This document shows positions 16,614 through 49,813 of a stretch of 49,813 nt of DNA, in pieces. The DNA is from a virus: IMG/VR virus record IMGVR_UViG_3300037245_003366, positions 1 to 49,813 of that record; one strand, 5' to 3'. Made by a program: the position numbers and the translations under genes. The notes beneath the pieces were generated by a model that saw only the letters and a list, made by a program, of their open reading frames with translations, ran no database searches and had not been told where the DNA came from. Position 1 is the first letter of the stretch. Each line of letters begins with the position of its first letter.

Positions 16614-16622
16614 GGGGGAGGT

Positions 16623-17250: not shown

Positions 17251-17253
17251 GAA

Positions 17254-17445: not shown

Positions 17446-17448
17446 AAA

Positions 17449-17619: not shown

Positions 17620-17622
17620 TGG

Positions 17623-20063: not shown

Positions 20064-20068
20064 TATTT

Positions 20069-20454: not shown

Positions 20455-20457
20455 AGG

Positions 20458-20598
20458 ATGTTTGATAAATGGATAGGATGGTTGATTGAAGCTTCCTTGG
20501 ATGAAGATAAGTGGTTAATATCAGTTGATAGTGTTTATATTCGTTCAAGGTTATGGTGGTCTGTTTATTGGAGAAAAAAGACGAGGAGTGATTATTGA
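20458..20598 (+). CDS. Hypothetical Trp-rich protein (46 aa) inside the polA gap
   Basis: MFDKWIGWLIEASLDEDKWLISVDSVYIRSRLWWSVYWRKKTRSDY; GAAGGATG context. Confidence 0.35.
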   Translation: MFDKWIGWLIEASLDEDKWLISVDSVYIRSRLWWSVYWRKKTRSDY

Positions 20599-20948
20599 TG
20601 AAAATATTAAGAGTATTAGAATATGAGGGAACCGAAGAGTTTATTTCAAGTTGTTTAAAGAATAGAGCTATACGTAATAGATATGAAGTTGGAAACGGAA
20701 TTATACGTGAAGCAATTCTTGGTGGTACTGATGAAGTTTTAAGTCAAATGGAGAATGAAAAAAGTATTATACCCTTAGATGAAAAAGTATTTTTTAGGTT
20801 TTTAAATGGAGAAAGACTTGTTAAAATTGCTAAAGATTTAGATGTATCTTTACCTGCTATAAGAAAAAGAGTATTGCGTTATTGTGGGAGAAAGGGGCTT
20901 AATTATGATAGAATTAAAATCAATTCGCGAAACCTTCCTCCCCGATGA
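20598..20948 (+). CDS. HTH protein (116 aa) inside the polA gap; its N-terminal half is paralogous to 22388..22609
   Basis: MKILRVLEYEGTEEFISSCLKNRAIRNRYEVGNGIIREAILG.. The C-terminal part ..GERLVKIAKDLDVSLPAIRKRVLRY.. looks like a sigma-r4/LuxR-type HTH. AGGAG upstream. Confidence 0.55.
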   Translation: MKILRVLEYEGTEEFISSCLKNRAIRNRYEVGNGIIREAILGGTDEVLSQMENEKSIIPLDEKVFFRFLNGERLVKIAKDLDVSLPAIRKRVLRYCGRKGLNYDRIKINSRNLPPR

Positions 20949-21753: not shown

Positions 21754-21967
21754 TAGCAGGTGTACAGGACGAACAACAAAAATGTTAATTGAATTAGCTT
21801 CTTATATTCATGAAAACTGGAATACATATAAAATTATTAGTTTCAGTTCTCATAGTTTAGTGTATTCTTTTAAGCTTATAGAAAGAATCCTTCCTGTTTT
21901 ACCTGGATATAAAAGAATAAATAAATACCATTTTGAATTCGGTAAAGTTCATTTATTTATTTATTAA
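21743..21967 (+). CDS. Hypothetical protein (74 aa)
   Basis: ..CTGRTTKMLIELASYI..; AAGGAGG upstream. Confidence 0.45.
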   Translation: MDLNSRCTGRTTKMLIELASYIHENWNTYKIISFSSHSLVYSFKLIERILPVLPGYKRINKYHFEFGKVHLFIY

Positions 21968-22053
21968 AACAAGAGAAGATCAATGTCTCGGATCACCGAG
22001 AAAAAAACTTCTTGATATGGATTTTGACGATCATTATATAAGGGAGATTTTAA

Positions 22054-22383
22054 ATGGTGGCGATATTGGATAAAAAAGAAACAAACAAACAGGCACAGGA
22101 TATTTTGAAGAATTTCACTCCGGATGAGAAGGCATTTGCGGAGGCATTCGCAACAATGAAGATTGAAAATAAGATGCTGACAAGGCAGCTTGTAACTTTA
22201 AAAGAAGCGTATGAAGAAATATGGCAATTGGCGGTGGTTGTGTTGGATATTGTGCAGAAGGATGACCCGGAAGGATTAAGGTTGCATGTGAGTCAGTTGA
22301 AGAGGTTTAAGGAAGAGTATAGGATAGATAGGAAAGTGGATGGGGAGGATGTTGTTTTTAAATTACTGACTGTGGGGGATTAG
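22054..22383 (+). CDS. Hypothetical protein (109 aa)
   Basis: ORF with AAGGGAG upstream. Confidence 0.55.
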   Translation: MVAILDKKETNKQAQDILKNFTPDEKAFAEAFATMKIENKMLTRQLVTLKEAYEEIWQLAVVVLDIVQKDDPEGLRLHVSQLKRFKEEYRIDRKVDGEDVVFKLLTVGD

Positions 22384-22387
22384 GGAC

Positions 22388-22609
22388 ATGAAAATATTAA
22401 GAGTATTAGAATATGAGGGAACAGCAGAATTTATTGCAAATAGCCTTAAAAATCGGAGTGTGAAAGTTAGGTATGAAATACCTGATGGTGTAATACGGGA
22501 AGCAATTCTTGGAACTTTTGAGGATCTTTTTTTACAATTTACAAAAGAAAATTGTGATGTTTGTAATTATCCACATTCAATGTGTATTTGTGAAGGAGGT
22601 GGGATATGA
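22388..22609 (+). CDS. Paralog of the N-terminal half of 20598..20948, with a C-terminal Cys cluster instead of an HTH (73 aa)
   Basis: MKILRVLEYEGTAEFIANSLKNRSVKVRYEIPDGVIREAILG... then CDVCNYPHSMCICEGG. The first 35 nt are identical to 20598..20632. Confidence 0.55.
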   Translation: MKILRVLEYEGTAEFIANSLKNRSVKVRYEIPDGVIREAILGTFEDLFLQFTKENCDVCNYPHSMCICEGGGI

Positions 22610-22983
22610 AAGTATTAAAAGCTGCACAAGTTTTAAGGGATTTTTATGATAAGAATAGGGCTGTTGGACATACTCAATTACTCCAACAAGGTATTGAAAA
22701 AGGTATTGAAGATAAAGAGTTTTTAGTTTTAGGTGCTCATGAGCACCAAGCAAGAATGCTTTGTAAAAGTAATAAGGAGCGAGCAATTCCTGTTTCAATT
22801 GAAAACTTGGGTATGAAATTGAAAGCAAAGAAGCTCCCTCTTGCCATTGATAATTCTTTTATGCATCAGTTTACCAGAGAGGTTGCTAAAGAACTTGAAG
22901 AATATAAAGAATTAAAACGCGAAGTGGTAGAACTGATTAAAGTATTTCAACCTAAGTTTAAGGAGTTCGACAATGAGGATTAA
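22606..22983 (+). CDS. Hypothetical protein (125 aa)
   Basis: ORF with GGAGGTGGG upstream; ATGA overlap. Confidence 0.55.
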   Translation: MKVLKAAQVLRDFYDKNRAVGHTQLLQQGIEKGIEDKEFLVLGAHEHQARMLCKSNKERAIPVSIENLGMKLKAKKLPLAIDNSFMHQFTREVAKELEEYKELKREVVELIKVFQPKFKEFDNED

Positions 22984-22986
22984 AAA

Positions 22987-24201
22987 ATGCCAAAAATCAT
23001 CTACCCCGCTCTTCAACATACCACTGACTTCTTCGAACTCTATCAATACATCTGCGGAATTAGTGAGATTCCTTCCGAATATCACTTCTGGTCATCACTT
23101 AGCATAGTCGCTGCATTAGCGGAAGATCATATCTGGTTTGAAAAATTCAAAGGAGAAAAGTTATACCCTAATCTTTATATGATATTAGTTGGGCCGAGTG
23201 GGTTAGGTAAGGGGGGAGCAATTAGCCAGGCTATCCGAGTGGCAGATAGCGCGGTGTATGTTAATCGGTATAGAGGGAAGCTGACGTATGCTCATTTAAT
23301 AGATAAACTCGGGAAGGCCAGTAAGGATGAATGGGGGAGGTTGGTTATAGCGAATCCGAGATTGTTTCTGGTTGCAGATGAATTGAGGAATTCGGTTGGT
23401 ACGAATCAGCAGTTGGTTACGGAGTTGATTGCCTTGTTGACTGAGTTATATACAGCGAGTGGATATACTTTACAAACAGGAACCAGGACGCATGGAAGTA
23501 TTGATATTACAAATCCTGTGGTTAATTGTTTGTTTGGGAGTACGGAGGACTGGTTGAGGTTTGTTATTACAAAGGATATTGCTCAGTCAGGATTCACGGC
23601 AAGAACTTGTTTTGTGTTCGGGAAATATGATTTTGAAAAGAAATGTCCGAGGATTATTTATCCGGATGATTATGAGGAAGTGTATGAGCATATTAAATGG
23701 CGACTCTGGATGATGCAGAATATCCGGGGGAGATGCGTGATGACGAGTAAGGCGGAGGCATTGGAAGATGAGTGGTATATTACAAGGCCAAATCCGAGTG
23801 AGGAGGCGTTGTATTCTACATGGAAAAGAAATCATGATTTGATGTTGAAATTTGCTATGTTGATGTCGTTGGCTGATAAAGGGGATTTGGTAATATGTCA
23901 TAGGCATTTAAAGAATGCTAAAGATATGGTGGATGTGGTTAACGGGCATACGATGAAGTTGATTGAGATGGCAAATGAGACGTGGGAGACGAAGCCGAGT
24001 AATGATATTATAGATTATATAAAAGAGAAGGGGAAGGTTAAGCACTCGGATGCGCTAAGATATTTCAGAACAAAAAAGGGAATGAACGCGAGCAGGTTTA
24101 AGGCTGCGGTATGGGATTTGAAACAGGAAGGGTTGGTGGAATTTGGGAAGAGTAAGACAGGTGGTGTGGTTTATACTTTAGCTATGAGGGGGAGGTTTTA
24201 A
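22987..24201 (+). CDS. DUF3987-like P-loop ATPase (putative replicative helicase or loader) with a C-terminal winged helix (404 aa)
   Basis: Walker A LVGPSGLGKGG, Walker B LFLVADEL, ..VNCLFGST..; the C-terminal ..AVWDLKQEGLVEFGKSKTGGVVYTL looks wHTH-like. Confidence 0.5.
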   Translation: MPKIIYPALQHTTDFFELYQYICGISEIPSEYHFWSSLSIVAALAEDHIWFEKFKGEKLYPNLYMILVGPSGLGKGGAISQAIRVADSAVYVNRYRGKLTYAHLIDKLGKASKDEWGRLVIANPRLFLVADELRNSVGTNQQLVTELIALLTELYTASGYTLQTGTRTHGSIDITNPVVNCLFGSTEDWLRFVITKDIAQSGFTARTCFVFGKYDFEKKCPRIIYPDDYEEVYEHIKWRLWMMQNIRGRCVMTSKAEALEDEWYITRPNPSEEALYSTWKRNHDLMLKFAMLMSLADKGDLVICHRHLKNAKDMVDVVNGHTMKLIEMANETWETKPSNDIIDYIKEKGKVKHSDALRYFRTKKGMNASRFKAAVWDLKQEGLVEFGKSKTGGVVYTLAMRGRF

Positions 24202-35693: not shown

Positions 35694-36638
35694 TTAAGTC
35701 AGTATTGTATCAGCACCATAACAATTTGAGTTAAGTACTGTACCAACTAAACCCATACAAACGGCTTCGTCAGCAGTATCATGTGCGAATCTACAATCTG
35801 AAACAATACCTGTACCAGCAGTACCAACAAATTGAATAAAAATATTAGGTGCTCCGCCAGTAGGTAATGCATGATTGAATCTGCAATTGTCAATTACTAT
35901 GTTTTTACAATCAGAGACTCGAATATCATTGGCCCAATCGGATGCCTGACCCCAAAAGTCACAGTCACGAATCATAGACGCTCTTATTGCCTGTAAAGCA
36001 GAGCCTAATACGACCCCAACCCCACCTTCCTGAAAGATGCAATGTTGAATTGTCGCCCAATGAACCGAATCAAGATGGACGGAACCATAAGGAGCGGCAG
36101 TATCGACAAAATCCTTAAAGCCGCAGTTACTTATCGTGAGTCCGTAAACTTCATTATTAGCAGCATTGGTTGCTCCGATACCGCCTCCGAGTGAGCCCGT
36201 GATAGCTTTCACCATTACGTTCTCGATAGAAACTCCAGGAGCCTGAACTAGAATCGTTGCAGCCGTACTCCCCACATCAGGTTCAATAGCGCATTGAATA
36301 TTCGCGCCCCATCCTCTTCTACCTCCGCCGCCTGTACCAATTAAACTCAAACCAAGCAAGGCATTATCGATAATCACACTACCGGAATAATACCCATGCG
36401 TGTGATATGCACCAACTGCGATTGCGCGAGGTCGTAAGAAGATAGTATCTTGAAGTCCAGCAGCATCAACAGCTTCTTGAATTGTTTTTTTCGCTTTCTC
36501 TGGGGCATTCCCTTCATTGCCCGCCAATCCTTCAATATCATCAACATACCACACATCATTGCCAAACCAACCAGCATATCTGTTGTTCGAAACTGGTACG
36601 CCACCAAACTCTTTTACTTGATCACCAAAAGTCGTCAT
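35694..36638 (-). CDS. Right-handed beta-helix (pectate-lyase-fold-like) protein without a signal peptide (314 aa)
   Basis: ..AKKTIQEAVDAAGLQDTIFLRP.. is followed by repetitive G/N/I/V-rich coils (..ISNCGFKDF.., ..IQHCIFQEG.., ..IRDCDFWGQ.., ..IDNCRFNHA.., ..VSDCRFAHD..). Confidence 0.55.
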   Translation of the reverse strand: MTTFGDQVKEFGGVPVSNNRYAGWFGNDVWYVDDIEGLAGNEGNAPEKAKKTIQEAVDAAGLQDTIFLRPRAIAVGAYHTHGYYSGSVIIDNALLGLSLIGTGGGGRRGWGANIQCAIEPDVGSTAATILVQAPGVSIENVMVKAITGSLGGGIGATNAANNEVYGLTISNCGFKDFVDTAAPYGSVHLDSVHWATIQHCIFQEGGVGVVLGSALQAIRASMIRDCDFWGQASDWANDIRVSDCKNIVIDNCRFNHALPTGGAPNIFIQFVGTAGTGIVSDCRFAHDTADEAVCMGLVGTVLNSNCYGADTILT

Positions 36639-40030: not shown

Positions 40031-41899
40031 CTATTGCATTAATCTTGGTGTTAATTCTGCTGGCGGTGGACCGCCTTGTCCAAGAAGACCGAGAAGTTGC
40101 ATAATAGCCTGTTGATCTCCGCCACCCTCTGAGAGGGAATTAAGCTCCTGGTCCATTTCTATTATAAAGGTTGCAGGATCTCGCATTTGATCGAAGGTAC
40201 GAATTGTCCGATCTATCATCTCTCCTGCGCTATTTGCTATTTTCCGAGCTACATCACGAACTTCCGGAGGAGTTTCCGGATTAGCTGCGAGAGTTACAAG
40301 TTCAATTGTTCGTTGGTAGTATTGTGCGAGTATGTTTGTGAGTAAGACAGCATTTTGACGGTCAGCTTCACGGTTGAGAGAAGCGGAAGCAGCTGTTATT
40401 TCTGTTGTAACTTGCTCGTCGAAAGATGGATTTTTGAGAAGGGTGATTACTTTCATTCCATCATCATATCCAAGAATGTTCATTATTGTGGCTTCTGCTT
40501 GTTCTCCTTGTTGTCCACCTTTGAGAAGAATTTCCTGGTAGCGGTAGAGAGCTTGTGAGAGAGAATTAGATATACATATCCTCATACCATCAAAAGCCGG
40601 AACAAATCGTCTATTCACTTGTTGAAGAAAGGAAGTAGCTGTCACGCCAGGAGTACGAGAGGGAATTTTATTTGGTTGAGAGATGTCATTTATCCCTACA
40701 CGCTGGTTTGCGAGTTGCATTGTGATCATTTGATCCTGCCAGATGGAGGAATATACATCACCCATTTCGAGAGCTTTAAGGTCTTCAGAAGGATTAGGAG
40801 TCTGAATATACTTCCCAGGCCACATTTTCATGGTTTCCGGGAGTCCCTCAGAACCTACCCATACACGAGAATTTGCAAGGAGGATGTTGAGAGTTGCGAA
40901 ATTATGGACATCCGATAACTTATCCTCATAAGGAGCCATCATTTGCATTACACCGAGGCCGTAGAACATGTGAGCCCGGAGTTGGTAGACCATTTTTTCA
41001 AGCGGCCGACGATCCATTGGGTTGTATTGGATGGATACTATCTTACGGCCTGAGTGGTTCCAGACTATTTTAAGGTCTTCGTTTATTCCATCACCATCGA
41101 TGTCATAAAAGCAATATACATCTATCAAATCATAAAGTGTATTCTTACGATTTCCCGGTTCTGAATACCTTCCGAGACGTTCACGTTCCGATCTCACCCA
41201 ATCCTTCGCGCCTATTGGTTGAATTCCTTCGATGTTCCATTTGTTTACGGAAGCGAGAGCCTGGATTTCGTTGAGGGTTTTGTAAAAGCGTATCCCAACA
41301 AGAGGGAGTTCTTCTATATTATCTACGCTGCCAACTGTTACAATGCAATCTTCTACCGGGATGCAATAGAAACGTGGACCGGCTGAGAGGACTTTGGCGG
41401 TTTTTGTCTTCTTGGTCTTCTGGACATATGGGGTGTATATGAGGGCTGTTCCGAGTTGGATATCTTCTAGGATTGCAGTCTCAGCAGCTTGGCGGAGGTT
41501 TGCATCCTTTGAACCTGCTATCCAATTGACGAAGCGTTGGAGGGCTTTTCCTTGCTCTACAACGGTATCATCGTCTTTTAATTTCGGAACAGGCCGGACG
41601 GTAGCCAAAGGGGTTGTGTTAAAGATAAGATCAATTGCCTGGGCGTAGATGGTATCGGTTGCGATTGCTCCAACTGTGACTTCAATATTCGGGGCATTTT
41701 CTACAGGGATATCTCGGGAGGTGAGTTTAGGAACTCCCTCATACATACGAAGAGATTCTCTCCAAATTGCTTCAAGAGGTTTGCGAGCCGATGAATAATC
41801 TTCAATTTCGGTGTAAATCCAATCAGAGAGAAATTGCATGGTATCTCCGGGGATTTGGAGAATTTGCTTTTGCTGGTGTTTTTGAAGATATTGAGGCAT
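40031..41899 (-). CDS. Portal protein (622 aa)
   Basis: Size and position at the head of the scaffold-capsid module; N-terminal ..LEAIWRESLRMYEGVP.. An alternative start is M21. Confidence 0.7.
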   Translation of the reverse strand: MPQYLQKHQQKQILQIPGDTMQFLSDWIYTEIEDYSSARKPLEAIWRESLRMYEGVPKLTSRDIPVENAPNIEVTVGAIATDTIYAQAIDLIFNTTPLATVRPVPKLKDDDTVVEQGKALQRFVNWIAGSKDANLRQAAETAILEDIQLGTALIYTPYVQKTKKTKTAKVLSAGPRFYCIPVEDCIVTVGSVDNIEELPLVGIRFYKTLNEIQALASVNKWNIEGIQPIGAKDWVRSERERLGRYSEPGNRKNTLYDLIDVYCFYDIDGDGINEDLKIVWNHSGRKIVSIQYNPMDRRPLEKMVYQLRAHMFYGLGVMQMMAPYEDKLSDVHNFATLNILLANSRVWVGSEGLPETMKMWPGKYIQTPNPSEDLKALEMGDVYSSIWQDQMITMQLANQRVGINDISQPNKIPSRTPGVTATSFLQQVNRRFVPAFDGMRICISNSLSQALYRYQEILLKGGQQGEQAEATIMNILGYDDGMKVITLLKNPSFDEQVTTEITAASASLNREADRQNAVLLTNILAQYYQRTIELVTLAANPETPPEVRDVARKIANSAGEMIDRTIRTFDQMRDPATFIIEMDQELNSLSEGGGDQQAIMQLLGLLGQGGPPPAELTPRLMQ

Positions 41900-41926: not shown

Positions 41927-41950
41927 TTAAAACAAGGCTGCCACTCAGCC
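41927..41950 (-). terminator. Candidate intrinsic terminator after the signal-peptide gene block
   Basis: Minus strand reads GGCTG-agtgg-CAGCC then TTGTTTT, 16 nt after the stop of the 818-aa gene. Confidence 0.35.
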
Positions 41951-41965: not shown

Positions 41966-44422
41966 TTACCAATCAACCTCAGTTTCGTCGGTTACATGCA
42001 TTTTCTTTGATGTCCATAACTGCATTCCGTAAAAAGAAAAAGTAGCATTAGATGCATCTCCCGCTGCAACATCATCTCGAGCAATCACAGCTTTTATCAA
42101 CCCTTGCCTTGGGACTGTTCCTGTCCAATCTGCATGAGTCCACCTGTCAATTTGATTCTCAACACCGGTTTCAAGTATTGTTGTCTTATATGATATAGAT
42201 GGTATAACCGTTGCCAAAGTAGTCCCGAATACGATATTTGAAAATCCAACCCCTATTTTAAACGCATCTGTGTCAGTGGTTAAATTACTATACATTACAG
42301 TTGCATAAAAACTTTCATCCCCTGACCAATCCATCGGGACTCCGAAAGTGGCATATGCGTAAGCGATAGAACTGTCAGCCGCAAAATCAATCACATTTAT
42401 TTCTGATCCAGAGGCACCGATTTGTGCTGCTGCCGCCGTTGCTTCAGGTGTCCAAGAAACTGCCGGAATAAACAAGCTTTTACGAAGTACCTGTAATCCT
42501 GTACTATCACCAGATACATTTGGTTCTCTGTATTCTTGCACCAACCCCATTTCAGGTTTAAAAGAAACAGTATCATATAACTTAACAAACTTGGCATCAG
42601 AAGTCATTTTAAAGTGATTCACTGTTCCGGCTGTAATATCAGCTTTCAAAGTACAATTTTCAATAGTGAAATTCTCTACATAATCAAGGTCAAATATATT
42701 GGCTGTATAAGCTCCTCCATTGGTATGCCCCCATCCACACTTTGTATTTCGCACCACTGTATTTCTAACTGGATCTACGGTGCTGTCACCCTCAGCTTTA
42801 ATTAGATACCAATCTGTAGGATAAGCCACTGTTACAAATAAATTAGGTTCAAAATATAACCCATCAAGGGTTGTGCCTAAAGACCCACCAGAAATAAAAA
42901 CACCATTCATTACGTTTTTAATTGTACTTCCAGAAATTTCAGTATTGTCAGAGTTGCCAAGGAAAAATCCTATCGTATCATCACTACCGTTTGAAAGCCC
43001 TTGAATATTAAAGTTTTTAAACTGAATATTATTACAGGCCTCTTTTACATAAACACCATACTGCGTACCGCTTACAGTGTCATCTCTATCGTCTATATTT
43101 ACATCTCTAATACCAAGCCCATTCCAAGCTCCATCGATATAAATTCCAGCCGTTACAAAATTCATTAACACTAATTTCTCAAAATACATACCCTGTAACT
43201 GGGCGTTTTCTATTTGGAGGGCATAAGTAGTATTTGTACTATCTCCTTCTATTGACATATTTGAAACTGTCGTACCCTGTATGAATCCTACTGGTCCTTT
43301 TACGTAAACAATTGCACCTGTGGCAGTTGACCGGATAACTGTCTTTGCCGGACCTGCGCCTTTAAAGCTTATGAAACTATCTTCTATTTCAAGTGGGCTT
43401 GATGTAATATAAACACCTGGCAATAATTGAACGGTCACGCCTCCATAAAGAGGCAAGTTATCACCGTCCACATCTGACACCACTTCTGCTGCATTTATAG
43501 CCGCCTGAATAGCTGCGGTATTATCAGTAGAAGCATCAGGTGCGCCATCAGGCCACCATCCAGGATGAAGCACCCCCGGCCTTGCAAAAGCTATCGTTCC
43601 CGAACCTGTTTTTATATTTTGTCTCTCTCCTGCTATTATATTCTCAGGAACATAAAAAGTAAGTGTTTTTGAAGTATCAGGAGAAACCCTTGCGCCGGGT
43701 TGGAATTTATACGTGACATTTGTATAAGCTGAAGCATCAAGTGAGGTGGAAATAATATAATCTGTATTAGTTTTTGTTCCTTTATGAGAGAATTCAACAG
43801 TATATTTTTTAGTCGTCCCGTAGGTTGTTAGGATATTTAAAAGTGAATTTGTTGTATCTGCTCCTTGGTCTACTTGAATATAATCTACTTGGTAAGTGTT
43901 ATAAAAAGGAAGGATAATTGTCCCAAGAACGCGATAATCTGTAACGGTTGTGATGGCTGTTCCATCTGTCACAGCCTCGAATAAAAGAATCGTCCCTGTT
44001 GGAGCATCCGGTGTATCAGTTGAATTCGCCATCTCAGCGAAGACGAAGTAATCATTGTAGGTTATCACCGCGCTGGCTATTGTGATTACACGATCATCAT
44101 CATCCCGGACGAAAACAAAGGTATCTGTTGAAGCTGTGTAGGTACGAGATACAGATGCTTGGAGTACATAATATTGATTCGGATAAGCTATACATTGAGA
44201 AATTGTGTGCGTAAGGGAAGCATCTGTCGCGCCAATTCCACCTGACTTCACAACCACTCCCCTATCCTGATCACGTTCAGGTTCTTCGTTTTCAAGGAAG
44301 TTTGCATTATCGGTTATAAAAGTATTATTCGCACTCGGAAGAGTGTTTATTGTTTGGGTATCTGAGAAGGATGTAGAAAAAGTAAAAAGAACAATAAGTA
44401 ATAATAATAAATATTTATACAT
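41966..44422 (-). CDS. Signal-peptide-bearing beta-helix (pectate_lyase_3 / tailspike-like) protein (818 aa)
   Basis: N-terminus MYKYLLLLLIVLFTFSTSFS|DT. ..GAPDASTDNTAAIQAAINAAEV....VQLLPGVYITSSPLEI..FKGAGPAKTVI.. is the classic N-cap of pectate-lyase-superfamily depolymerases. Confidence 0.65.
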   Translation of the reverse strand: MYKYLLLLLIVLFTFSTSFSDTQTINTLPSANNTFITDNANFLENEEPERDQDRGVVVKSGGIGATDASLTHTISQCIAYPNQYYVLQASVSRTYTASTDTFVFVRDDDDRVITIASAVITYNDYFVFAEMANSTDTPDAPTGTILLFEAVTDGTAITTVTDYRVLGTIILPFYNTYQVDYIQVDQGADTTNSLLNILTTYGTTKKYTVEFSHKGTKTNTDYIISTSLDASAYTNVTYKFQPGARVSPDTSKTLTFYVPENIIAGERQNIKTGSGTIAFARPGVLHPGWWPDGAPDASTDNTAAIQAAINAAEVVSDVDGDNLPLYGGVTVQLLPGVYITSSPLEIEDSFISFKGAGPAKTVIRSTATGAIVYVKGPVGFIQGTTVSNMSIEGDSTNTTYALQIENAQLQGMYFEKLVLMNFVTAGIYIDGAWNGLGIRDVNIDDRDDTVSGTQYGVYVKEACNNIQFKNFNIQGLSNGSDDTIGFFLGNSDNTEISGSTIKNVMNGVFISGGSLGTTLDGLYFEPNLFVTVAYPTDWYLIKAEGDSTVDPVRNTVVRNTKCGWGHTNGGAYTANIFDLDYVENFTIENCTLKADITAGTVNHFKMTSDAKFVKLYDTVSFKPEMGLVQEYREPNVSGDSTGLQVLRKSLFIPAVSWTPEATAAAAQIGASGSEINVIDFAADSSIAYAYATFGVPMDWSGDESFYATVMYSNLTTDTDAFKIGVGFSNIVFGTTLATVIPSISYKTTILETGVENQIDRWTHADWTGTVPRQGLIKAVIARDDVAAGDASNATFSFYGMQLWTSKKMHVTDETEVDW

Positions 44423-44437
44423 GATTTTCTCCTATAA

Positions 44438-46237
44438 TCAATTAAAATAGCCCCCAGTTATTGTTGAGCCTTTGATGTTGGGGGTGGATGCTGCTTCTTC
44501 TTCTGCGCCTTCAATCCAAGTTGGATCATCATTACCGTCTCTGTCCGCTGTGCCTCGGAGCCATGCTGTTGATGCTAAGTCAGTGAGCACACCGTCTACC
44601 CAATCGTTATCGCTTGGATTTGTTGCACCGATATAAGATGGCATTGTAACTCCAGATAAGTATGGATGATTACCCCCGACTCCACCATCAGCTATTGTAA
44701 CAGCACCTTCTACAACATGCGCCCCTCTTGTAATATAATTATTTGCGCCACCCCCACCTACCATGATATTATCTGCCCCCTCAGATGACACCTTAATATA
44801 CGTTTGTCCGCCGTACTCCGTCTCAACTTCTGCCCCTGTTAGGTGTCCATACTCGGTGCCAAGACCAGCTATAGGGTTTCCAATTGAAAACGGCGTAGCA
44901 GGGTTTGAACTGCTGCGATAAAAATAATTACTATCGAACACCAAACTGTTAACAACATATGATAATGTAACAGGAACTTCAGCACCAATAACCACTTGAT
45001 AGGTATTGCCAGAGACACCTGCAAAATTATCCACAAGGTTACTGTAATACCCATCCCAAAAATCAAAGGGCGGTGCTGTCCCGTCGCAGTAATCTGTGCA
45101 TACAGGAGCACAACTTCCTGTGCAAGATGTCTCTTGGCTGCTTCTAAAATTAACACCTATAAGAGTGTTATTATATATGTTTACTCTTAATCTCCGCCAA
45201 CCCCCAAACTGAGATTGTGCAACCCTTGCATCTTCAACAATATTATTATAGAATTGTGCATAATCTTGACGAAGGATAACGGATTCCTCTGTATGGTTGA
45301 TAAAAATGTTATGGTGTATTTTGTCACCGTATTCTTCATAAGTAGTGCTTGATCCATCAGATGGCCCAAGTATTTGCGAAGCCTTGTGTTTAAGGCCATT
45401 CTCAGATAGTGTGCCAGAGCCACCGTCAAAAAAATTGTAATGAAAAACATTACTATTTTGAGCAATATCAATACTTACGATATCAGTGCATCCACCAGAT
45501 TCATCTTTATAATCTGAGTACATATCTACTTGTTGGCCATTTACACCTTCTGACCCATTATGATAAAAATAACAATATTCGACCGTTGAATTTCGTAAAC
45601 GATATGTAGTAAGCCCCGAGGGATTGTTTAGATAAGAATCATCCCAACAGTCATTAAAATACACATATCGAATTTTTACTGGCCCTCCTGCCACCCAAAG
45701 ACCAGCCCCTCCCTCTCCATCAGCACCAGGGGATGCCCCCCTATACAACTCAAATCTCTCAAACATCCAGTATGCTATTTCGCTGGATGCTGGTGTGTCG
45801 TTCACACAAGCCTGACTGCTCCCCATTGTTTTGTGGCCTAAAATTACACCCCTCGGAGCAGATCCGTCACCGTCAAGAATCGCCCATTCCGTTGGAAAAG
45901 ATGTTAATTTACTGTAGTTTCCTTCTGTCCAAGCAGTACCATTCTTTGACACAGGGATATCAATCATTGATTCACCGTAGGCGTCATTGTCAGTATATAC
46001 GCCTTCTCGCATATATACTATATCACCAGCAGCCATTCCGGCTATCCCATCTGATATCGTAACGTAACCTGTCCCTGCCCCTGGAAAACTTTCATGCGAA
46101 GATGTGTATGATTCACCATCAACGCCTGACCATGTTGCGTCTGATTCTATAGCGCCATTATCAATATAAATATAAGCTGCCCATGATTTAGAGATTAAGC
46201 ATATAAAAATAAAAATAAAAAATAAATACCGCTTCAT
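44438..46237 (-). CDS. Signal-peptide-bearing right-handed beta-helix protein (599 aa)
   Basis: N-terminus MKRYLFFIFIFICLISKSWA|AY. ..ISDGIAGMAAGDIVYMREGVYTD.. followed by N/H/Y-rich helical coils (..YCYFYHNGSEG.., ..HHNIFINHTEE.., ..FYNNIVEDA.., ..IYNNTLIG..). Confidence 0.6.
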   Translation of the reverse strand: MKRYLFFIFIFICLISKSWAAYIYIDNGAIESDATWSGVDGESYTSSHESFPGAGTGYVTISDGIAGMAAGDIVYMREGVYTDNDAYGESMIDIPVSKNGTAWTEGNYSKLTSFPTEWAILDGDGSAPRGVILGHKTMGSSQACVNDTPASSEIAYWMFERFELYRGASPGADGEGGAGLWVAGGPVKIRYVYFNDCWDDSYLNNPSGLTTYRLRNSTVEYCYFYHNGSEGVNGQQVDMYSDYKDESGGCTDIVSIDIAQNSNVFHYNFFDGGSGTLSENGLKHKASQILGPSDGSSTTYEEYGDKIHHNIFINHTEESVILRQDYAQFYNNIVEDARVAQSQFGGWRRLRVNIYNNTLIGVNFRSSQETSCTGSCAPVCTDYCDGTAPPFDFWDGYYSNLVDNFAGVSGNTYQVVIGAEVPVTLSYVVNSLVFDSNYFYRSSSNPATPFSIGNPIAGLGTEYGHLTGAEVETEYGGQTYIKVSSEGADNIMVGGGGANNYITRGAHVVEGAVTIADGGVGGNHPYLSGVTMPSYIGATNPSDNDWVDGVLTDLASTAWLRGTADRDGNDDPTWIEGAEEEAASTPNIKGSTITGGYFN

Positions 46238-46246
46238 GATTCTCCT

Positions 46247-46957
46247 CTATAATGGCTTAATTGCAACTGCTGTAATGTTTGCTTGTACTGATCCAGTCCA
46301 AGTCCACCCCATCGTTACCGATGCTGCCCCCGGTTCTGTTGACATTCCAAGGGAAACAGCAGTCCCTTCAGCGATATTTGCTCTCTCTGTTTGACCTGCA
46401 ATAACTGTTGGAGCAGCTCCACTTCTAATCGCTATAACATCGACACACCAGTCATTAGTAGCCCCTGATATAGTAGTAGAAAGGGTTTCTGCTGTTGCGG
46501 CATTATTTACAGGAGTGCCAAACGTAGAAGATTGAGCCACGCCAGTAAATGAAATAGCACCAGTAGCGCACGACATATTTTCAGAGAAAGATGCAACGAT
46601 ATCATGCGTACCAGTATCAGGGGATAGAATGTAATAAAGACTTGTGTACAGGATACTGCCATCCTCATCAAGCAAAGTCATGGTATCCCCATTCCAAGTC
46701 ACACCAGTTGGCCCAGATGAAAACCGTGTGGCAACCCCGACAACCAAAAGCCTATTATCTCCAGCTATCGTATGGCTCCATGTTCGTGATGTTCCATAAC
46801 CCTCAGATTCTGAAGTTGCATCAAGAGCAATCTCACCACCACCGGGAGCAGCCACATTCAAAGCAGCAATCACAGCCAGATGCTTTTGCTGCACTGGCCC
46901 GGCAGCAACCAAGAAAGGGATAAGAAGGATTAAAAGGGTTAGTTTTAGTTTTTTCAT
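46247..46957 (-). CDS. Signal-peptide-bearing beta-rich protein (236 aa)
   Basis: N-terminus MKKLKLTLLILLIPFLVAAG. The remainder is T/S/G/A-rich and all-beta-looking. Confidence 0.55.
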   Translation of the reverse strand: MKKLKLTLLILLIPFLVAAGPVQQKHLAVIAALNVAAPGGGEIALDATSESEGYGTSRTWSHTIAGDNRLLVVGVATRFSSGPTGVTWNGDTMTLLDEDGSILYTSLYYILSPDTGTHDIVASFSENMSCATGAISFTGVAQSSTFGTPVNNAATAETLSTTISGATNDWCVDVIAIRSGAAPTVIAGQTERANIAEGTAVSLGMSTEPGAASVTMGWTWTGSVQANITAVAIKPL

Positions 46958-46968
46958 TATAGTATCCT

Positions 46969-48639
46969 TTAATCTGTAACTTCTGTCCAGCCGTTAGATT
47001 CCGCCAACCATCCGTCAACATCGTCAAACTGAATTACTATAATATCACCGGCAGATGAACCATTTAATGCATCGTGGTTATCATCTAACTGCACACCATC
47101 CAATATTAAATCATCACCTGCATCAGGAAGAATAGAAACTGCAATATCACCAAAAGTGATAACTGTAAAATTCATTCCGGATACTGGGGCTGGTAAGTCT
47201 ACATCGCCAGTTCCGTTTGCTACAAAAGTTCCTCCATATAGATTAGCTCCTGTGAAGTTAGCAGCAAAATTATCAGCATCATCATGAACGGGAGTTAGAG
47301 CTTTGACACTACCTGTCGTATTATCATAATCCACTGAATCTGTAGTCAGCGTTAAAGTTCCATCATTAGCAAGTGTTCCAGCACCAGACATAACAACAAA
47401 TGCCCCTGAGTCAGCACCATCACCCACAAAAAACTCAGTATCAGCTATCCCGGTTATCGTTGTTTCAAGACTGTTTGTTTCTGCTCCTGGACTTCCCCAT
47501 GATATCTGACTCACGGCAGGATCACCAGCAGGAGCACCAAATTGCCAAATTTCATTAGCTTCAGGGAGATCACTTGGGAACTTAAACCGCAGGGTGGCGG
47601 CTATACTTGCCGGACCTTCGAAACCTATCATTAAAATATCTGTACTATTACCTTCATGTACTCCCATGAAACCAGGAACACCTGATTCTTTTAAAAACGA
47701 TATAGAACCAACATCTTCAAGATCATCACCACTTGTTATTTTTATAGTGGATTCCTTTACTCCTTTGGCTCCATCGTCACCAATTACAATAGCATCGGCA
47801 GTAATTGCGGCAGCAGCAGTTACATCTCCACCACCGCCAAGAGTCTCTATCTTATCCCGTATTGCATTTTTAGTAGCAGCTTCGGTGTTGTTATCCCACG
47901 ATGTTGCGTTGTACGCAGTATCATCTATCTTAGCATCAATCAAAGTATTGATATCAGAGGCTTTTACATCTTGATCCATTTCGTATAGTTCATAAGCACC
48001 CTGTCCTGTGTTAAGCGTTAGGACAACAGTATCCCCATCATCATCAACCGTGAAACCATCTGCCCCGGCTGTCATTGTGCCGGCAACAAGAAGATTTTGC
48101 ATCCGCTTATCTGGTATCACCCATGCGCCAGTCCCTGAAACATTATCATCAGGGATTATGATATAAGGTACAGATTCGCCACCGGCTTCAGAAGCGCTGT
48201 AAATATGAAATGTTTCTACTGTACCTTCATACCCAAAAGCAATATCTCCATCACTTATCGTTGCCACTGCTTTAAGGTCAAGATCACCAGCAGCCCCACC
48301 TACCCATCCTGTGTAATTATAAGGCAAAGATAAATCATCACGAACCTCTACATAATTCCTACCCTCAATAGTATTAACATCAGTAAAACGAGCAAAGTCA
48401 TTAGCTACTGGAGTTCCACTTGTATTAACCGTACCTCCTCCACCAGCTTCAGTAAAAGTAAGTACTCCATTTGTAATCGAAATTGTCCCATTAGGCCATA
48501 CGACCTTATAAGCATAAACATCTCCTGGGGAACCATCACCTTCTGAGTTCATTATTCCCAATCGGGCAGCTTGAGAAGGCGATGCATAGATAAAGATAAC
48601 CAATAAAATGAAGAATAACCTTCTAAGCAATGTAAACAT
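46969..48639 (-). CDS. Signal-peptide-bearing fibre/adhesin-like protein (556 aa)
   Basis: N-terminus MFTLLRRLFFILLVIFIYASPSQA|A. It has recurring fibre-like units (GGGGTVNTSGTPVANDFARFTDVNTIEG; GGGGDVTAAAAITADAIVIGDDGAKGVKES) and is D/G/T-rich. Confidence 0.55.
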   Translation of the reverse strand: MFTLLRRLFFILLVIFIYASPSQAARLGIMNSEGDGSPGDVYAYKVVWPNGTISITNGVLTFTEAGGGGTVNTSGTPVANDFARFTDVNTIEGRNYVEVRDDLSLPYNYTGWVGGAAGDLDLKAVATISDGDIAFGYEGTVETFHIYSASEAGGESVPYIIIPDDNVSGTGAWVIPDKRMQNLLVAGTMTAGADGFTVDDDGDTVVLTLNTGQGAYELYEMDQDVKASDINTLIDAKIDDTAYNATSWDNNTEAATKNAIRDKIETLGGGGDVTAAAAITADAIVIGDDGAKGVKESTIKITSGDDLEDVGSISFLKESGVPGFMGVHEGNSTDILMIGFEGPASIAATLRFKFPSDLPEANEIWQFGAPAGDPAVSQISWGSPGAETNSLETTITGIADTEFFVGDGADSGAFVVMSGAGTLANDGTLTLTTDSVDYDNTTGSVKALTPVHDDADNFAANFTGANLYGGTFVANGTGDVDLPAPVSGMNFTVITFGDIAVSILPDAGDDLILDGVQLDDNHDALNGSSAGDIIVIQFDDVDGWLAESNGWTEVTD

Positions 48640-48901
48640 AAAGCGTTCCTCCTTGAGTAATTGCTAAAATGAATCCAAGGAAATCCTGCGGAGGATTGAA
48701 GTAAATTGTTTCAAGTCCCGCCCGACCTCCCGTAAGTGCATCCGTTACTGTCCAGATTTCTTCTCCGTTATTATCTGTAATCGCAAGGTCATCACCTGCG
48801 GCATTCGGGACATATTCCATTCGTTTTACTCGAATTTTGTCAGTGGATATTGTACCAGCTGTATCCAAAACCCATTGTAAGTGACCATATTCATTTGCCA
48901 T
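48623..48901 (-). CDS. Hypothetical protein (92 aa) that overlaps and precedes the signal-peptide block
   Basis: ORF overlapping the next gene by 17 nt. Confidence 0.5.
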   Translation of the reverse strand: MANEYGHLQWVLDTAGTISTDKIRVKRMEYVPNAAGDDLAITDNNGEEIWTVTDALTGGRAGLETIYFNPPQDFLGFILAITQGGTLYVYIA

Positions 48902-49463: not shown

Positions 49464-49813
49464 TTAATGAACTGTCTGACCTCTTTCAGATTGAAAATCG
49501 GCCAATTTGCGCTCAATTAAATGAGCAGGGGTTCTTGTTTTACGGAGGTATGCAGCATATGCCTCCTTTTCTTTGTTCTTTCGATGTTTTAGGGGTCGCT
49601 TCGGAGCAATCCGGATACAAGTCTCCATTGCGTCTACAATATCTTTCGTTACCGCTGTCGGGAATCCTTGCATTTCTGATCTTGCTTCTACTTGATTCTC
49701 CATAAGAAAAAGCCTCCCTTGTAAAATCACAGGCTCAAGACCGGTTCTTATTCGGAAATTCTTCTCTACATTTGTCGGTTGATATACGGGTATCATCTTT
49801 ACTGTCCCGAGTT
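49464..49813 (-). CDS. terL: Large terminase nuclease fragment, 3' part (the same ORF as 1..419; 49687..49813 duplicates 1..127)
   Basis: ..MIPVYQPTNVEKNFRIRTGLEPVILQGRLFLMEN....GFPTAVTKDIVDAMETCIRIA.. has the C-terminal Asp motif (D..DA) of terminase nucleases, followed by a basic tail. Confidence 0.8.
   Translation of the reverse strand, partial: LGTVKMIPVYQPTNVEKNFRIRTGLEPVILQGRLFLMENQVEARSEMQGFPTAVTKDIVDAMETCIRIAPKRPLKHRKNKEKEAYAAYLRKTRTPAHLIERKLADFQSERGQTVH
49687..49813. repeat. Terminal direct repeat, copy 2 (identical to 1..127)
   Basis: Identical over all 127 nt. Confidence 0.95.

What the first reader, a model, noticed from the sequence alone, without database searches (positions are those of the whole stretch)
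41966..48901. Block of four consecutive Sec-signal-bearing proteins (two beta-helix enzymes) inserted between terminase and portal
Four consecutive late-strand genes encode proteins of 556, 236, 599 and 818 aa (46969..48639, 46247..46957, 44438..46237, 41966..44422). Each begins with a textbook n-h-c signal peptide: MFTLLRRLFFILLVIFIYASPSQA|A, MKKLKLTLLILLIPFLVAAG, MKRYLFFIFIFICLISKSWA|A and MYKYLLLLLIVLFTFSTSFS|D.

I read the N-termini of the other roughly 20 late-strand proteins of about 70 aa or more, and none has such a segment.

Two of the four carry right-handed beta-helix / pectate-lyase-superfamily signatures (TDNTAAIQAAINAA...VQLLPGVYITSSPLEI in the 818-aa protein; GDIVYMREGVYTD plus N/H-rich coils in the 599-aa protein). 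The 556-aa protein has fibre-like G-rich repeat units.

The block splits the usually adjacent terL-portal pair. A small 92-aa ORF overlaps and precedes it, and a hairpin plus T-tract (41927..41950) closes it just before the portal gene.

Virion proteins assemble in the cytoplasm and should not carry cleavable export signals. Possible explanations are a phage-encoded exported glycan-degrading and adhesin set (surface or matrix remodelling, superinfection exclusion, release), or an unconventional envelope-routed way of maturing receptor-binding proteins.
Basis: partly seen in the sequence, partly recalled or inferred. Interest (0 to 1): 0.78.

Follow-up and report, generated by a model that had tools for sequence, protein, structure and literature searches.

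The report
Export-signal-bearing tailspike cassette in a phage
A circular 49.7-kb phage genome, like its uncultured relatives, carries between its DNA-packaging and portal genes a swappable block of tail-fibre- and tailspike-like sugar-cutting proteins that all start with secretion signals, so proteins normally built into the virus particle inside the cell appear to be sent outside the cytoplasm.

Summary
**Observation: confirmed.** The four ORFs are at the stated coordinates. Each starts at a Shine-Dalgarno-preceded ATG with an n-h-c leader. These are the four most hydrophobic N-termini of all ORFs in the window.

**Not a one-off.**
- In ten related podophage genomes, 28 of 35 large ORFs in the terL-portal interval carry such leaders, against 2 of 100 elsewhere (p = 4e-20).
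- The cassette varies from 1 to 7 leader-bearing genes.

**The 818-aa protein has full tailspike architecture:** leader, then an RBP-type beta-sandwich N-domain, then a beta-helix.
- Orthologues exist without the leader, and they begin exactly at the predicted cleavage site.
- One leaderless orthologue lies inside the tail module.
- The N-domain is equally conserved with or without the leader (59% versus 54-59% identity). The leader itself is only 22% identical.

**The other three proteins:**
- The 599-aa protein belongs to an always-leader-bearing, probably Pel9A-like beta-helix family, with one relative in a cellular EPS locus.
- The 556-aa and 236-aa proteins are built from fibre and lectin-like modules that occur both with and without leaders.

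**Best reading (about 0.5):** a Sec-exported accessory set, derived from receptor-binding proteins, that acts on host envelope glycans late in infection.

**Main rival (about 0.25):** the spikes are exported and join virions at lysis.

No SignalP was available, the host is unknown, and I found no description in the literature searched.

The parts
48623..48901 (-). p92: small leaderless ORF that opens the cassette and overlaps the 556-aa gene by 17 nt. Function unknown.
   Evidence: SD-preceded ATG. Homologues at the head of the cassette in L008 (58%), L013 and L006/L014 (40%). No Pfam, PHROG or NCBIfam hit at or above a family threshold.
46969..48639 (-). 556-aa exported mosaic fibre-like protein. 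Leader is residues 1-24 (48568..48639), predicted cleavage SQA|A.
   Evidence: Of 72 homologues, 49 have leader-like or lipoprotein-like N-termini and 23 have none. Similarity comes in short modules (q23-105, q228-272, q383-437, q431-556). P0057 shares 83% identity over residues 1-72, leader included. Leaderless P0069 aligns from q23.
46247..46957 (-). 236-aa exported protein. Leader about residues 1-19/20 (46898..46957), a 20-residue linker, then a roughly 195-aa lectin/adhesin-like domain (residues 43-235).
   Evidence: phrog_2106 minor tail protein, E = 1.4e-6. 6354 representative proteins carry the domain. It occurs as leaderless 'MAIAFDAAS...' proteins, as leader-bearing 'A|AIAFDAAS...' proteins, as repeats in giant proteins and behind type IV pilin-like N-termini.
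44438..46237 (-). 599-aa exported enzyme, probably a Pel9A-like right-handed beta-helix glycan lyase or hydrolase. Leader is residues 1-20 (46178..46237), cleavage SWA|A.
   Evidence: All 12 homologues read carry leaders, followed by a conserved 'IYVD' start. PF22842 Pel9A-like_beta_helix is precomputed on 8 of 15 homologues. One homologue hits Beta_helix and DUF1565. P0030 has a weak PelN hit. Eight Cys in the mature part, including CxxxCxxxCxxxC.
41966..44422 (-). 818-aa tailspike-architecture protein with a leader.
   Evidence: Sub-parts are listed in the next three rows.
44363..44422 (-). Signal peptide of the 818-aa protein (residues 1-20, MYKYLLLLLIVLFTFSTSFS|D).
   Evidence: Twelve of 16 aligned homologues have a leader ending right before (A/D)TQTINT. 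Four start M(A/T)(K/T)QTIN. Leader identity is 22% against 59% for the mature domain.
43913..44362 (-). Conserved N-domain (residues 21-170, 'TQTINTLPS...GGIGATDASLTHTIS'): a beta-sandwich of the receptor-binding-protein shoulder type.
   Evidence: 31 invariant columns. AF2 model of the first 191 residues has pLDDT 81, above 90 over residues 70-160. Foldseek finds the cyanophage A-1(L) tail fiber 8kec at E = 2e-3 and lactococcal p2 RBP lower down. In BFVD it finds 'Receptor Binding Protein sandwich domain', haloarchaeal tailed-virus proteins and the Mtd N-terminal domain at E = 4e-5 to 1e-3.
42833..43438 (-). Right-handed beta-helix (residues about 329-530) of the 818-aa protein. The C-terminal 285 residues are unmodelled.
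   Evidence: Pfam NosD E = 1.9e-4, below the family cut-off. AF2 pLDDT 75-95 in this stretch. Foldseek against PDB finds Geobacillus virus E2 ORF18 (1.9e-6), AlgE4 epimerase, the P22, CBA120 and Sf6 tailspikes, and RbmB lyase.
41936..41950 (-). Weak hairpin plus T-rich tail in the 66-nt gap before the portal gene. Doubtful terminator.
   Evidence: 5-bp stem. The count of such sites in the region is not above shuffled controls.
40031..41899 (-). Portal gene (SU10 type): downstream boundary of the cassette.
   Evidence: PF23899, E = 7.7e-20.
49464..49813 (-). 3' part of the terL nuclease-domain ORF (419..1 joined to 49686..49464 on the circle): upstream boundary of the interval.
   Evidence: Homologous to separate nuclease-domain ORFs in L002, L003, L006, L007 and L012.

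Best explanation
The block is a hypervariable cassette of Sec-exported proteins built from tail-fibre and tailspike modules. It is specific to a clade of uncultured podophages with an SU10-type portal.

**Proposed mechanism:**
1. Each protein is translated from its own SD-preceded ATG with a type-I signal peptide.
2. The host Sec machinery translocates it.
3. It is cut directly in front of a conserved mature N-terminus.
4. It folds outside the cytoplasm.
5. There the beta-helix enzymes (818 aa, 599 aa) cleave an envelope polysaccharide (capsule, EPS, O-antigen or S-layer glycan), and the fibre-like (556 aa) and lectin-like (236 aa) proteins bind one.
6. The likely benefit is a receptor-destroying or receptor-masking and matrix-loosening action from the infected cell. 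Progeny would then escape and would not be lost on debris, and late superinfection would be blocked.

**Shown:** the leaders, their restriction to this interval across the clade, the module homologies and the folds.

**Inferred:** export itself (I put it at about 0.85), cleavage, timing, substrate and benefit.
For: **Leaders**
- Four leaders with n/h/c anatomy sit at SD-preceded starts.
- Across the clade, 28/35 large ORFs in the terL-portal interval have leaders versus 2/100 elsewhere, p = 4e-20.
- Leader sequence is free to vary (22% identity) while the mature domain is 59% identical.
- Leaderless homologues of three of the four proteins start or align at the cleavage site.
- Other signal types occur in the same cassettes. 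L003 3153..3749 has a Tat-like leader (MNRREALKRIG...PKAHA|F) and homologues have lipoboxes. This suggests that export as such is what selection keeps.
- Mature parts contain 0, 2, 8 and 4 Cys, all even numbers (weak evidence).

**Cellular and accessory context**
- Every homologue of the 599-aa protein that I read carries a leader. One relative (35% identity) lies in a cellular EPS/PEP-CTERM locus.
- The 236-aa domain also occurs behind pilin-like N-termini and in giant surface proteins.
- The virion module keeps leaderless fibre candidates: fib316 with a tail-fibre N-terminal domain (phrog_1980), bh314 with a Beta_helix domain, and p396, whose N-terminus is conserved and whose remainder varies.
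- In relatives, lysis genes share the interval: a GH24-like protein in L015/L011, an amidase-like protein in L008 and small TM proteins in L010.
Against: - The 818-aa protein has the anatomy of a virion-attached receptor-binding protein. Its conserved N-terminal docking-type domain is under the same constraint with and without the leader. A free enzyme would not obviously need that domain.
- Most genomes of the clade have only the leader-bearing copy of this spike.
- The cassette lies in the late strand among structural genes.
- In an unrelated sipho-type phage (L019), three leader-bearing proteins, one of them 50% identical to the 599-aa protein, sit where tail fibres normally are.
- There is no expression, localisation or activity data.
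- The signal-peptide call rests on my own heuristic.
- The host is unknown. Whole-phage contigs were binned into both a Dehalococcoidales and a Sulfurimonas MAG.
Confidence: 0.5

Rival explanations
1. **Extracytoplasmic maturation of receptor-binding proteins.** The spikes and fibres are exported, fold and trimerise in the periplasm or on the cell surface, and dock onto tail-complete but spike-less particles. Docking would use the conserved N-domain and would happen when holin lesions or lysis mix the compartments.
For: - The N-domain has an RBP-shoulder fold.
- It is as conserved in leader-bearing as in leaderless orthologues.
- Signal cleavage would produce the same mature N-terminus, (A/D)TQTINT, that leaderless proteins have after Met removal.
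- Leaderless orthologue P0011 lies between the fib316 homologue and the p200/adaptor genes. fib316 stays conserved in genomes whose only such spike has a leader.
- L019 has leader-bearing proteins at the tail-fibre position.
- From my own knowledge: P22 heads accept purified tailspikes in vitro, so post-assembly docking is physically possible.
Against: - I know of no precedent in tailed phages and found none in the papers searched.
- Dilution at lysis would make docking inefficient.
- The 599-aa family has a cellular secreted relative with no virion link.
- Leaderless fibre candidates exist in the tail module.
- No interaction was tested.
Confidence: 0.25
2. **The hydrophobic N-termini are not cleaved export signals.** They would be uncleaved signal-anchors or assembly helices that tether the proteins to the cytoplasmic membrane or to another phage protein.
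For: - The cleavage sites of the 236-aa protein and of some homologues are non-canonical (for example P0002 ...NAYP|A).
- P0006 and the L007 spike have a long cytoplasmic N-extension before the hydrophobic segment, like a type II anchor.
- No predictor or experiment was available.
Against: - The h-regions are only 11-14 residues.
- Ala or another small residue at position -1 directly precedes the conserved mature start in most homologues.
- Leaderless orthologues start exactly there.
- With a positive n-region the bulk of the protein would still face outside the cytoplasm.
Confidence: 0.1
3. **Host-derived auxiliary carbohydrate-active enzymes.** The genes would be secreted cellular glycanases picked up with their signals. 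They would serve nutrient or biofilm metabolism and not the infection cycle.
For: - A relative of the 599-aa protein lies in a cellular EPS locus.
- Signal peptides occur in 5% of prophage-encoded CAZymes (PMC13507307).
Against: - Three of the four proteins are made of phage fibre or RBP modules.
- The cassette is conserved in position and variable in content, as host-range loci are.
- No integrase was seen among the ORFs scanned, although the scan was incomplete.
Confidence: 0.1

Closest known systems
Podophage tailspike depolymerases (P22 gp9, Sf6, CBA120 TSP2; Geobacillus virus E2 ORF18)
   Same: The 818-aa protein has an N-terminal docking-type domain followed by a right-handed beta-helix, with a variable C-terminal part. 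These structures are the top fold matches.
   Different: From my own knowledge, the known tailspikes have no signal peptide and assemble in the cytoplasm. Here a leader precedes the docking domain, and the gene sits in a terL-portal cassette, not in the tail module.
Pantoea stewartii WceF, a bacterial Tat-exported glycanase with a tailspike-like fold (PMC7949094)
   Same: An exported beta-helix protein of tailspike fold that acts on the producer's own exopolysaccharide.
   Different: WceF is chromosomal, lies in an EPS biosynthesis cluster and uses a Tat signal. The proteins here are phage-encoded, mostly Sec-type, and one retains an RBP N-domain.
Secreted and signal-anchor-release phage endolysins (fOg44 Lys44, SAR endolysins; review PMC6116005)
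   Same: Phage late proteins that use the host Sec system and accumulate outside the cytoplasm before lysis.
   Different: Those are muralytic enzymes. None of the four proteins has a muralytic domain. The endolysin candidate of this phage (weak M15_4 hit) lies elsewhere, at 16921..17250.
Exported exclusion or conversion proteins encoded next to RBP genes (T5 Llp, T1/phi80 Cor, lambda Lom). Cited from my own knowledge, not checked here.
   Same: Signal-bearing phage proteins genetically linked to receptor recognition, acting at the envelope of the infected cell.
   Different: Those are small lipoproteins or outer-membrane proteins that block a protein receptor. Here the proteins are large enzyme- and fibre-like and have no lipobox in the window.
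Inovirus coat proteins g3p and g8p. Cited from my own knowledge.
   Same: Virion proteins with cleavable Sec signals that assemble outside the cytoplasm. This is the only well-known precedent for the rival reading.
   Different: Filamentous ssDNA phages extrude through the envelope. This genome has terminase, portal and an HK97-type capsid protein, so it is a tailed phage that assembles in the cytoplasm.
Signal-bearing prophage CAZymes (PMC13507307)
   Same: Phage-encoded glycan-active enzymes with SignalP-positive leaders exist: 5% of 64,678.
   Different: That survey removed tail fibres and other structural or infection-related proteins. It describes scattered auxiliary genes and not a cassette of RBP-derived proteins.

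Membership tests
Sec-type (signal peptidase I) cleavable signal peptide | Positively charged n-region within the first residues | tested here: met
   K3 (818 aa); K2 and R3 (599 aa); K2, K3 and K5 (236 aa); R6 and R7 (556 aa).
Sec-type (signal peptidase I) cleavable signal peptide | Uninterrupted hydrophobic h-region of about 7-15 residues, shorter than a TM helix | tested here: met
   The h-regions are 11-14 residues. They give the top four hydrophobicity scores of all ORFs.
Sec-type (signal peptidase I) cleavable signal peptide | c-region with small residues at positions -3 and -1 | tested here: inconclusive
   SFS|D, SWA|A and SQA|A fit the rule. The 236-aa protein (VAA|G or AAG|P) and some homologues are non-canonical. 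No trained predictor was available.
Sec-type (signal peptidase I) cleavable signal peptide | Actual translocation and cleavage | not testable with these tools
   Indirect support only: leaderless homologues begin at the predicted site.
Twin-arginine (Tat) signal | Invariant RR in an S/T-R-R-x-F-L-K motif, a weakly hydrophobic h-region and often a basic c-region | tested here: not met
   The 556-aa leader has RRLFF, but its h-region is very hydrophobic, and homologue P0072 has KK at that place. A convincing Tat-like leader occurs only in a relative's cassette, at L003 3153..3749.
Lipoprotein (signal peptidase II) signal | Lipobox L-[AS]-[GA]-C at the end of the h-region | tested here: not met
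   None of the four window leaders has a Cys at the cleavage region. Several homologues of the 556-aa protein do.
Phage tailspike / receptor-binding protein | Conserved N-terminal virion-docking domain with a variable distal part | tested here: met
   The N-domain is 42-60% identical across 16 homologues while the remainder is replaced. Its fold matches RBP shoulder domains.
Phage tailspike / receptor-binding protein | Right-handed parallel beta-helix enzymatic domain | tested here: met
   AF2 model plus Foldseek matches to tailspikes and glycan lyases or epimerases. The Pfam NosD hit is below its cut-off.
Phage tailspike / receptor-binding protein | Gene in the tail module and product present in the virion | tested here: not met
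   In the window the gene lies between terL and portal and carries a leader. Only the leaderless orthologue P0011 lies in the tail module. Virion presence cannot be tested here.
Phage tailspike / receptor-binding protein | Homotrimer | not tested
   Only monomer models were made.
Polysaccharide lyase family 9 / Pel9A-like beta-helix (599-aa protein) | Match to PF22842 or to PL9 catalytic residues | tested here: inconclusive
   PF22842 is precomputed on 8 of 15 homologues. My own hmmscan gave no hit for the window protein, and only Beta_helix and DUF1565 for one homologue. P0030 has a weak PelN hit. No structure model was made.
Secreted or SAR endolysin | Muralytic catalytic domain behind the signal | tested here: not met
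   No lysozyme, amidase or peptidase domain in any of the four proteins.

The most novel reading that the evidence does not exclude
In this clade of tailed phages the variable receptor-binding spikes and fibres do not assemble in the cytoplasm. They are routed through the host Sec (and sometimes Tat or lipoprotein) pathways, mature outside the cytoplasmic membrane, and are picked up by tail-complete particles at or after lysis through the conserved N-domain. This would be an extracytoplasmic branch of Caudoviricetes assembly.
Probability: 0.22. Interest if true: 0.9.

Novelty: new variant of a known kind. Interest (0 to 1): 0.68.

Why it matters
Tailspikes and tail fibres are the textbook example of proteins that join the virion in the cytoplasm. 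Here a protein with full tailspike anatomy, and leaderless orthologues in a tail module, carries an export signal. It sits in a clade-wide, rapidly changing cassette in which nearly every large protein has one.

Either reading would be new for tailed phages:
- **Receptor-binding modules are repeatedly recruited as secreted tools** that remodel the infected cell's surface glycans. That would be a receptor-destroying or release function not yet described for tailed phages.
- **Part of virion assembly takes place outside the cytoplasm.**

Both readings are testable with simple export fusions and virion proteomics once a host or an expression system is available.

There is also a practical consequence for annotation. 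'Tail fibre' calls made from homology alone may include exported non-virion proteins. Surveys of viral auxiliary genes that discard tail-like proteins may miss this class.

Tried and rejected
- **GenBank phages.** Megablast of half the genome found nothing. tblastn of each of the four proteins found nothing. The portal's best hit is 23% identical, to a predicted Methanomicrobiales virus in which terL and portal are adjacent.
- **Archaeal host.** Rejected as unsupported. The window has a weak M15 peptidase-like hit and relatives have SleB-like, GH24-like and amidase-like proteins, which points to a peptidoglycan-bearing host.
- **Host from MAG binning.** Contradictory: Dehalococcoidales versus Sulfurimonas, both on whole-phage contigs.
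- **Sequence searches of PDB.** Single proteins and family profiles gave nothing significant.
- **NCBIfam.** No hit for any of the four proteins.
- **Two isoforms from an internal start** (one exported, one cytoplasmic). No SD-preceded in-frame start follows any leader.
- **Tat signal for the 556-aa protein.** Rejected, because a homologue has KK at the RR position.
- **Terminator closing the block.** The hairpin is weak and such sites are not enriched.
- **Homology between the Tat-like L003 198-aa protein and the Sec-type L010 200-aa protein.** Only 19 residues match (E = 0.002), too weak to claim a signal swap.
- **Exact-sequence look-up of the 818-aa protein.** Found no record. The 599-aa and 556-aa proteins are on record on a 49,813-bp JGI contig.
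- **Context of leaderless P0069.** Uninformative.
- **Literature.** Five searches found no description of signal-bearing tailspikes.

Full report
**1. What is in the sequence**

The window is a circular assembly. Bases 1..127 repeat at 49687..49813, giving a 49,686-bp genome (my earlier reading of 128 nt was an indexing slip).

On the - strand the gene order is:
- terS-like ORF (3010..2402)
- terL ATPase ORF (2405..909; phrog_38, 4e-38)
- a 62-aa ORF
- terL nuclease-domain ORF, which runs over the window ends (419..1 joined to 49686..49464)
- two small basic ORFs
- p92 (48901..48623)
- the four ORFs of the finding
- an SU10-type portal (41899..40031; PF23899, 8e-20)

The four ORFs are exactly as described.
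- Their N-termini are the four most hydrophobic of all ORFs of 60 aa or more in six frames.
- A simple n/h/c rule flags them and no other plausible gene.
- Each ATG has an AGGAG-type ribosome-binding site. No SD-preceded internal start would give a leaderless isoform.
- The h-regions are 11-14 residues, which is signal-peptide length and not transmembrane length.
- If exactly four of 60-71 genes carry leaders, the chance that all four are adjacent is about 1e-4.

The hairpin before the portal gene is a 5-bp stem and is not convincing.

**2. The phage**

Beyond the portal, the late genes include:
- a Phage_capsid_4 major capsid protein
- a weak SU10-type adaptor hit (below the Pfam cut-off)
- a 650-aa protein with a weak internal-virion-protein PHROG hit
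- a conserved 316-aa protein whose residues 58-130 match the N-terminus of tail fibres (phrog_1980, 1e-11)
- a 314-aa Beta_helix protein next to the capsid gene

None of these has a leader.

The + strand carries replication genes: a split family-A DNA polymerase whose first ORF also carries a UDG-superfamily domain, a PD-(D/E)XK nuclease, a DUF3987 protein and an MT-A70 methylase. It also carries a weak M15 peptidase-like hit that may be the endolysin.

Nothing similar exists in GenBank phages at the DNA level or for the four proteins.

**3. The leaders are a clade-wide property of one genomic interval**

Homologues of the 818-aa protein led to related genomes of 43-53 kb, with portal 44-64% and capsid 53-85% identical. 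In all of them the terL-portal interval holds a different set of leader-bearing proteins.

| Genome | Leader-bearing proteins in the interval |
|---|---|
| L006, L009, L012 | 1 |
| L002, L008, L010, L013 | 3-4 |
| L022 | 5 |
| L003 | 7 |

Counting ORFs of 150 aa or more in ten genomes, 28 of 35 in the interval have a leader, against 2 of 100 elsewhere (Fisher p = 4e-20).

The distant relative vir526 has terL and portal adjacent, so the cassette is an insertion hot spot.

Other kinds of signal occur in the same cassettes. L003 3153..3749 begins MNRREALKRIGIIAGFGILPSGLWVPKAHA|F, a Tat-like leader. Several homologues of the 556-aa protein have lipoboxes.

In some relatives, lysis-type genes lie in the same interval: a GH24-like protein plus a TM protein in L015/L011, an amidase-like protein in L008, and two small TM proteins in L010.

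**4. The 818-aa protein is a tailspike with a leader**

Sixteen homologues share a 150-residue N-domain that begins (A/D)TQTINTLPS and has 31 invariant columns. Behind it the sequence is replaced by unrelated beta-helix regions.

- **Leader on or off.** Twelve homologues have a leader that ends immediately before this motif. Four start M-A/T-K/T-QTIN, exactly at the predicted cleavage site. In L003 and L021 the leaderless ORFs cannot be extended upstream.
- **N-domain fold.** The AF2 model has pLDDT 81. It is a beta-sandwich whose best matches are all phage fibre or receptor-binding proteins: cyanophage A-1(L) tail fiber at E = 2e-3 in PDB, and 'RBP sandwich domain', haloarchaeal tailed-virus proteins, the Mtd N-terminal domain and lactococcal p2 RBP in BFVD or lower in the PDB list. 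These scores are modest.
- **Beta-helix.** Residues 329-530 match the depolymerase of Geobacillus virus E2, AlgE4 epimerase, the P22, CBA120 and Sf6 tailspikes, and RbmB lyase. The last 285 residues could not be modelled.

Where the gene lies tracks whether it has a leader.

| Location of the spike gene | Leader | Genomes |
|---|---|---|
| Last gene of the pre-portal cassette | yes | window, L002, L006, L008-L010, L012, L013 |
| Directly after the portal gene | no | L003, L022 |
| In the tail module, between the fib316 homologue and the p200/adaptor genes | no | L021 |

Constraint on the N-domain does not depend on the leader.

| Comparison | Mean identity |
|---|---|
| N-domain, leader-bearing vs leader-bearing | 59% |
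| N-domain, leaderless vs leaderless | 59% |
| N-domain, leader-bearing vs leaderless | 54% |
| Leader region, among leader-bearing | 22% |

The leaderless P0011 is most similar to leader-bearing sequences. The leader was therefore gained or lost at least twice.

**5. The other three proteins**

*599 aa.* All twelve homologues I read have leaders followed by a conserved '(A)xIYVD' start.
- Eight of fifteen carry a precomputed PF22842 hit, named Pel9A-like_beta_helix.
- My own scans gave no hit for the window protein. They gave only Beta_helix and DUF1565 for one homologue and a weak PelN hit for another. The fold assignment is therefore probable, not shown.
- P0020 (50% identical) ends a sipho-type tail module: tape measure, tail proteins, then three leader-bearing proteins of 914, 232 and 598 aa.
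- P0028 (35% identical) lies in a cellular EPS/PEP-CTERM locus.

*556 aa.* The protein is a mosaic.
- Homologues share short modules at 40-86% identity.
- 49 of 72 homologues have leader-like or lipoprotein-like N-termini and 23 have none.
- P0057 shares the leader itself (83% identity over residues 1-72).
- Leaderless P0069 aligns from residue 23.

*236 aa.* Residues 43-235 form a domain found in 6354 representative proteins. It occurs in several forms:
- leaderless 'MAIAFDAAS...' proteins
- leader-bearing 'A|AIAFDAAS...' proteins
- repeats within giant proteins
- behind type IV pilin-like N-termini
- in a PHROG annotated as minor tail protein

It behaves as an extracellular binding module.

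*Cysteines.* The mature parts of the four proteins have 0, 2, 8 and 4 Cys. This is weakly consistent with disulfide formation outside the cytoplasm.

**6. Interpretation**

I put the probability that these proteins are really exported at about 0.85. The reasons are:
- the canonical anatomy at true start codons
- the confinement of leaders to one interval across a clade
- free variation of leader sequence with conserved physico-chemistry
- leaderless homologues that begin at the cleavage site
- the presence of Tat-like and lipoprotein-type signals in the same cassettes

What the proteins do after export is inferred.

*Best reading (0.5).* An accessory exported set derived from receptor-binding modules, which cuts or binds envelope glycans of the infected cell late in infection. 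Possible benefits are release from capsule or matrix, destruction or masking of the receptor on debris, and exclusion of superinfecting phages. In its favour:
- the virion module keeps leaderless fibre candidates
- the 599-aa family is always leader-bearing and has a relative in a cellular EPS locus
- lysis genes share the interval in relatives
- the cassette varies as host-specificity loci do

*Main rival (0.25).* The spikes are still virion parts and dock after export. In its favour:
- the N-domain has a docking-type fold
- that domain is as constrained with a leader as without
- most genomes have only the leader-bearing copy
- fib316 stays conserved and lies next to the leaderless spike in L021. 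From my own knowledge, this resembles adapter-plus-spike systems of SP6/K1-5-like phages
- an unrelated siphophage has leader-bearing proteins at the fibre position

*Lesser rivals.* Uncleaved anchors (0.1) and host-derived auxiliary CAZymes (0.1).

**7. Comparison with what is known**

Phage proteins that use host export are known. A review describes secreted and SAR endolysins and the T4 RI antiholin (PMC6116005). From my own knowledge the list also includes spanins, the exclusion lipoproteins Llp and Cor, and inovirus coat proteins.

A bacterial Tat-exported glycanase of tailspike fold is known: WceF (PMC7949094).

About 5% of prophage CAZymes have signal peptides, in a survey that set tail proteins aside (PMC13507307).

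I found no description of signal-bearing tailspikes or of a cassette like this one in five full-text searches. The library is incomplete, so this is absence of evidence only.

I class the finding as a new variant of a known kind. If the docking rival is right, it would be categorically new.

**8. Limits**

- No trained signal-peptide predictor was available.
- No multimer modelling was done.
- There is no structure model for the 599-, 556- or 236-aa proteins.
- The 818-aa full-length model has pLDDT 59, with the C-terminal third unmodelled.
- The host is unknown.
- All relatives are metagenomic contigs, some of them partial.
- ORF starts in relatives were taken as the longest ORF, or a nearby Met.

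Noticed in passing
window 1..127 and 49687..49813: The two ends are identical over 127 nt, so the window is a circular assembly of 49,686 bp. The overlap length suggests a k = 127 assembler (my inference).
   Followed up: yes
window 909..2405, 724..912, and 419..1 joined to 49686..49464 (- strand): The large terminase is encoded as two ORFs: an ATPase ORF of 498 aa and a nuclease-domain ORF of 213 aa. They are separated by about 490 nt that hold a 62-aa CxxC-rich ORF. The same split occurs in L002, L006, L007 and L012, sometimes with several small genes in between.
   Followed up: partly
window 5000..24200 (+ strand genes), extreme at 8000..12000: The early/replication half is strongly purine-loaded and C-poor on the coding strand: A 33%, G 28%, T 28%, C 11%. 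GC skew is +0.43 overall and reaches +0.59 with C = 8% at 8000..12000. The late half has GC skew 0.00. I have no explanation.
   Followed up: partly
window 18174..20063 and 20884..21753: The family-A DNA polymerase appears split. A UDG-superfamily domain plus the 3'-5' exonuclease lie in one ORF, and the polymerase domain lies in another about 800 nt downstream.
   Followed up: no
window 16921..17250: A 109-aa ORF has a weak Peptidase_M15_4 match (E = 1e-4, below the Pfam cut-off). It is the only endolysin candidate seen and lies among early-strand genes, not near the cassette.
   Followed up: no
L003 3153..3749: A cassette protein of a related phage starts with a Tat-like leader, MNRREALKRIGIIAGFGILPSGLWVPKAHA|F. 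Its neighbours have Sec-type leaders.
   Followed up: partly
L019 6562..11797 (ENA ERZ27271454 k119_4013): An unrelated phage with a tape-measure-type tail module ends that module with three leader-bearing proteins of 914, 232 and 598 aa. The last is 50% identical to the window's 599-aa protein. A 107-aa C-terminally anchored protein follows.
   Followed up: partly
L018 1..20288 (IMGVR_UViG_3300020045_003268): A 35-kb viral contig in which about 10 of 17 large ORFs have signal-like N-termini. One of them is a 256-aa protein whose domain matches baseplate-wedge and giant virion structural proteins (phrog_13163, 3e-38).
   Followed up: partly
homologues of the 556-aa protein (P0036, P0053, P0056, P0059, P0076, P0081, P0084, P0088, P0101) and L002 7254..8459: Many leader-bearing homologues have Gln near the predicted cleavage site (...A|Q, ...S|Q). 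From my own knowledge this pattern is typical of Bacteroidota exported proteins. The four window proteins do not show it.
   Followed up: no
L002 18458..20374: In one relative, the beta-helix protein encoded just after the capsid gene is 638 aa and carries a leader (MKRFYLIAACIVALLFSPAPVALA|G). It shares 28% identity over 174 aa with the window's leaderless 314-aa protein at 35694..36638. Leader gain is therefore not strictly limited to the terL-portal interval.
   Followed up: no
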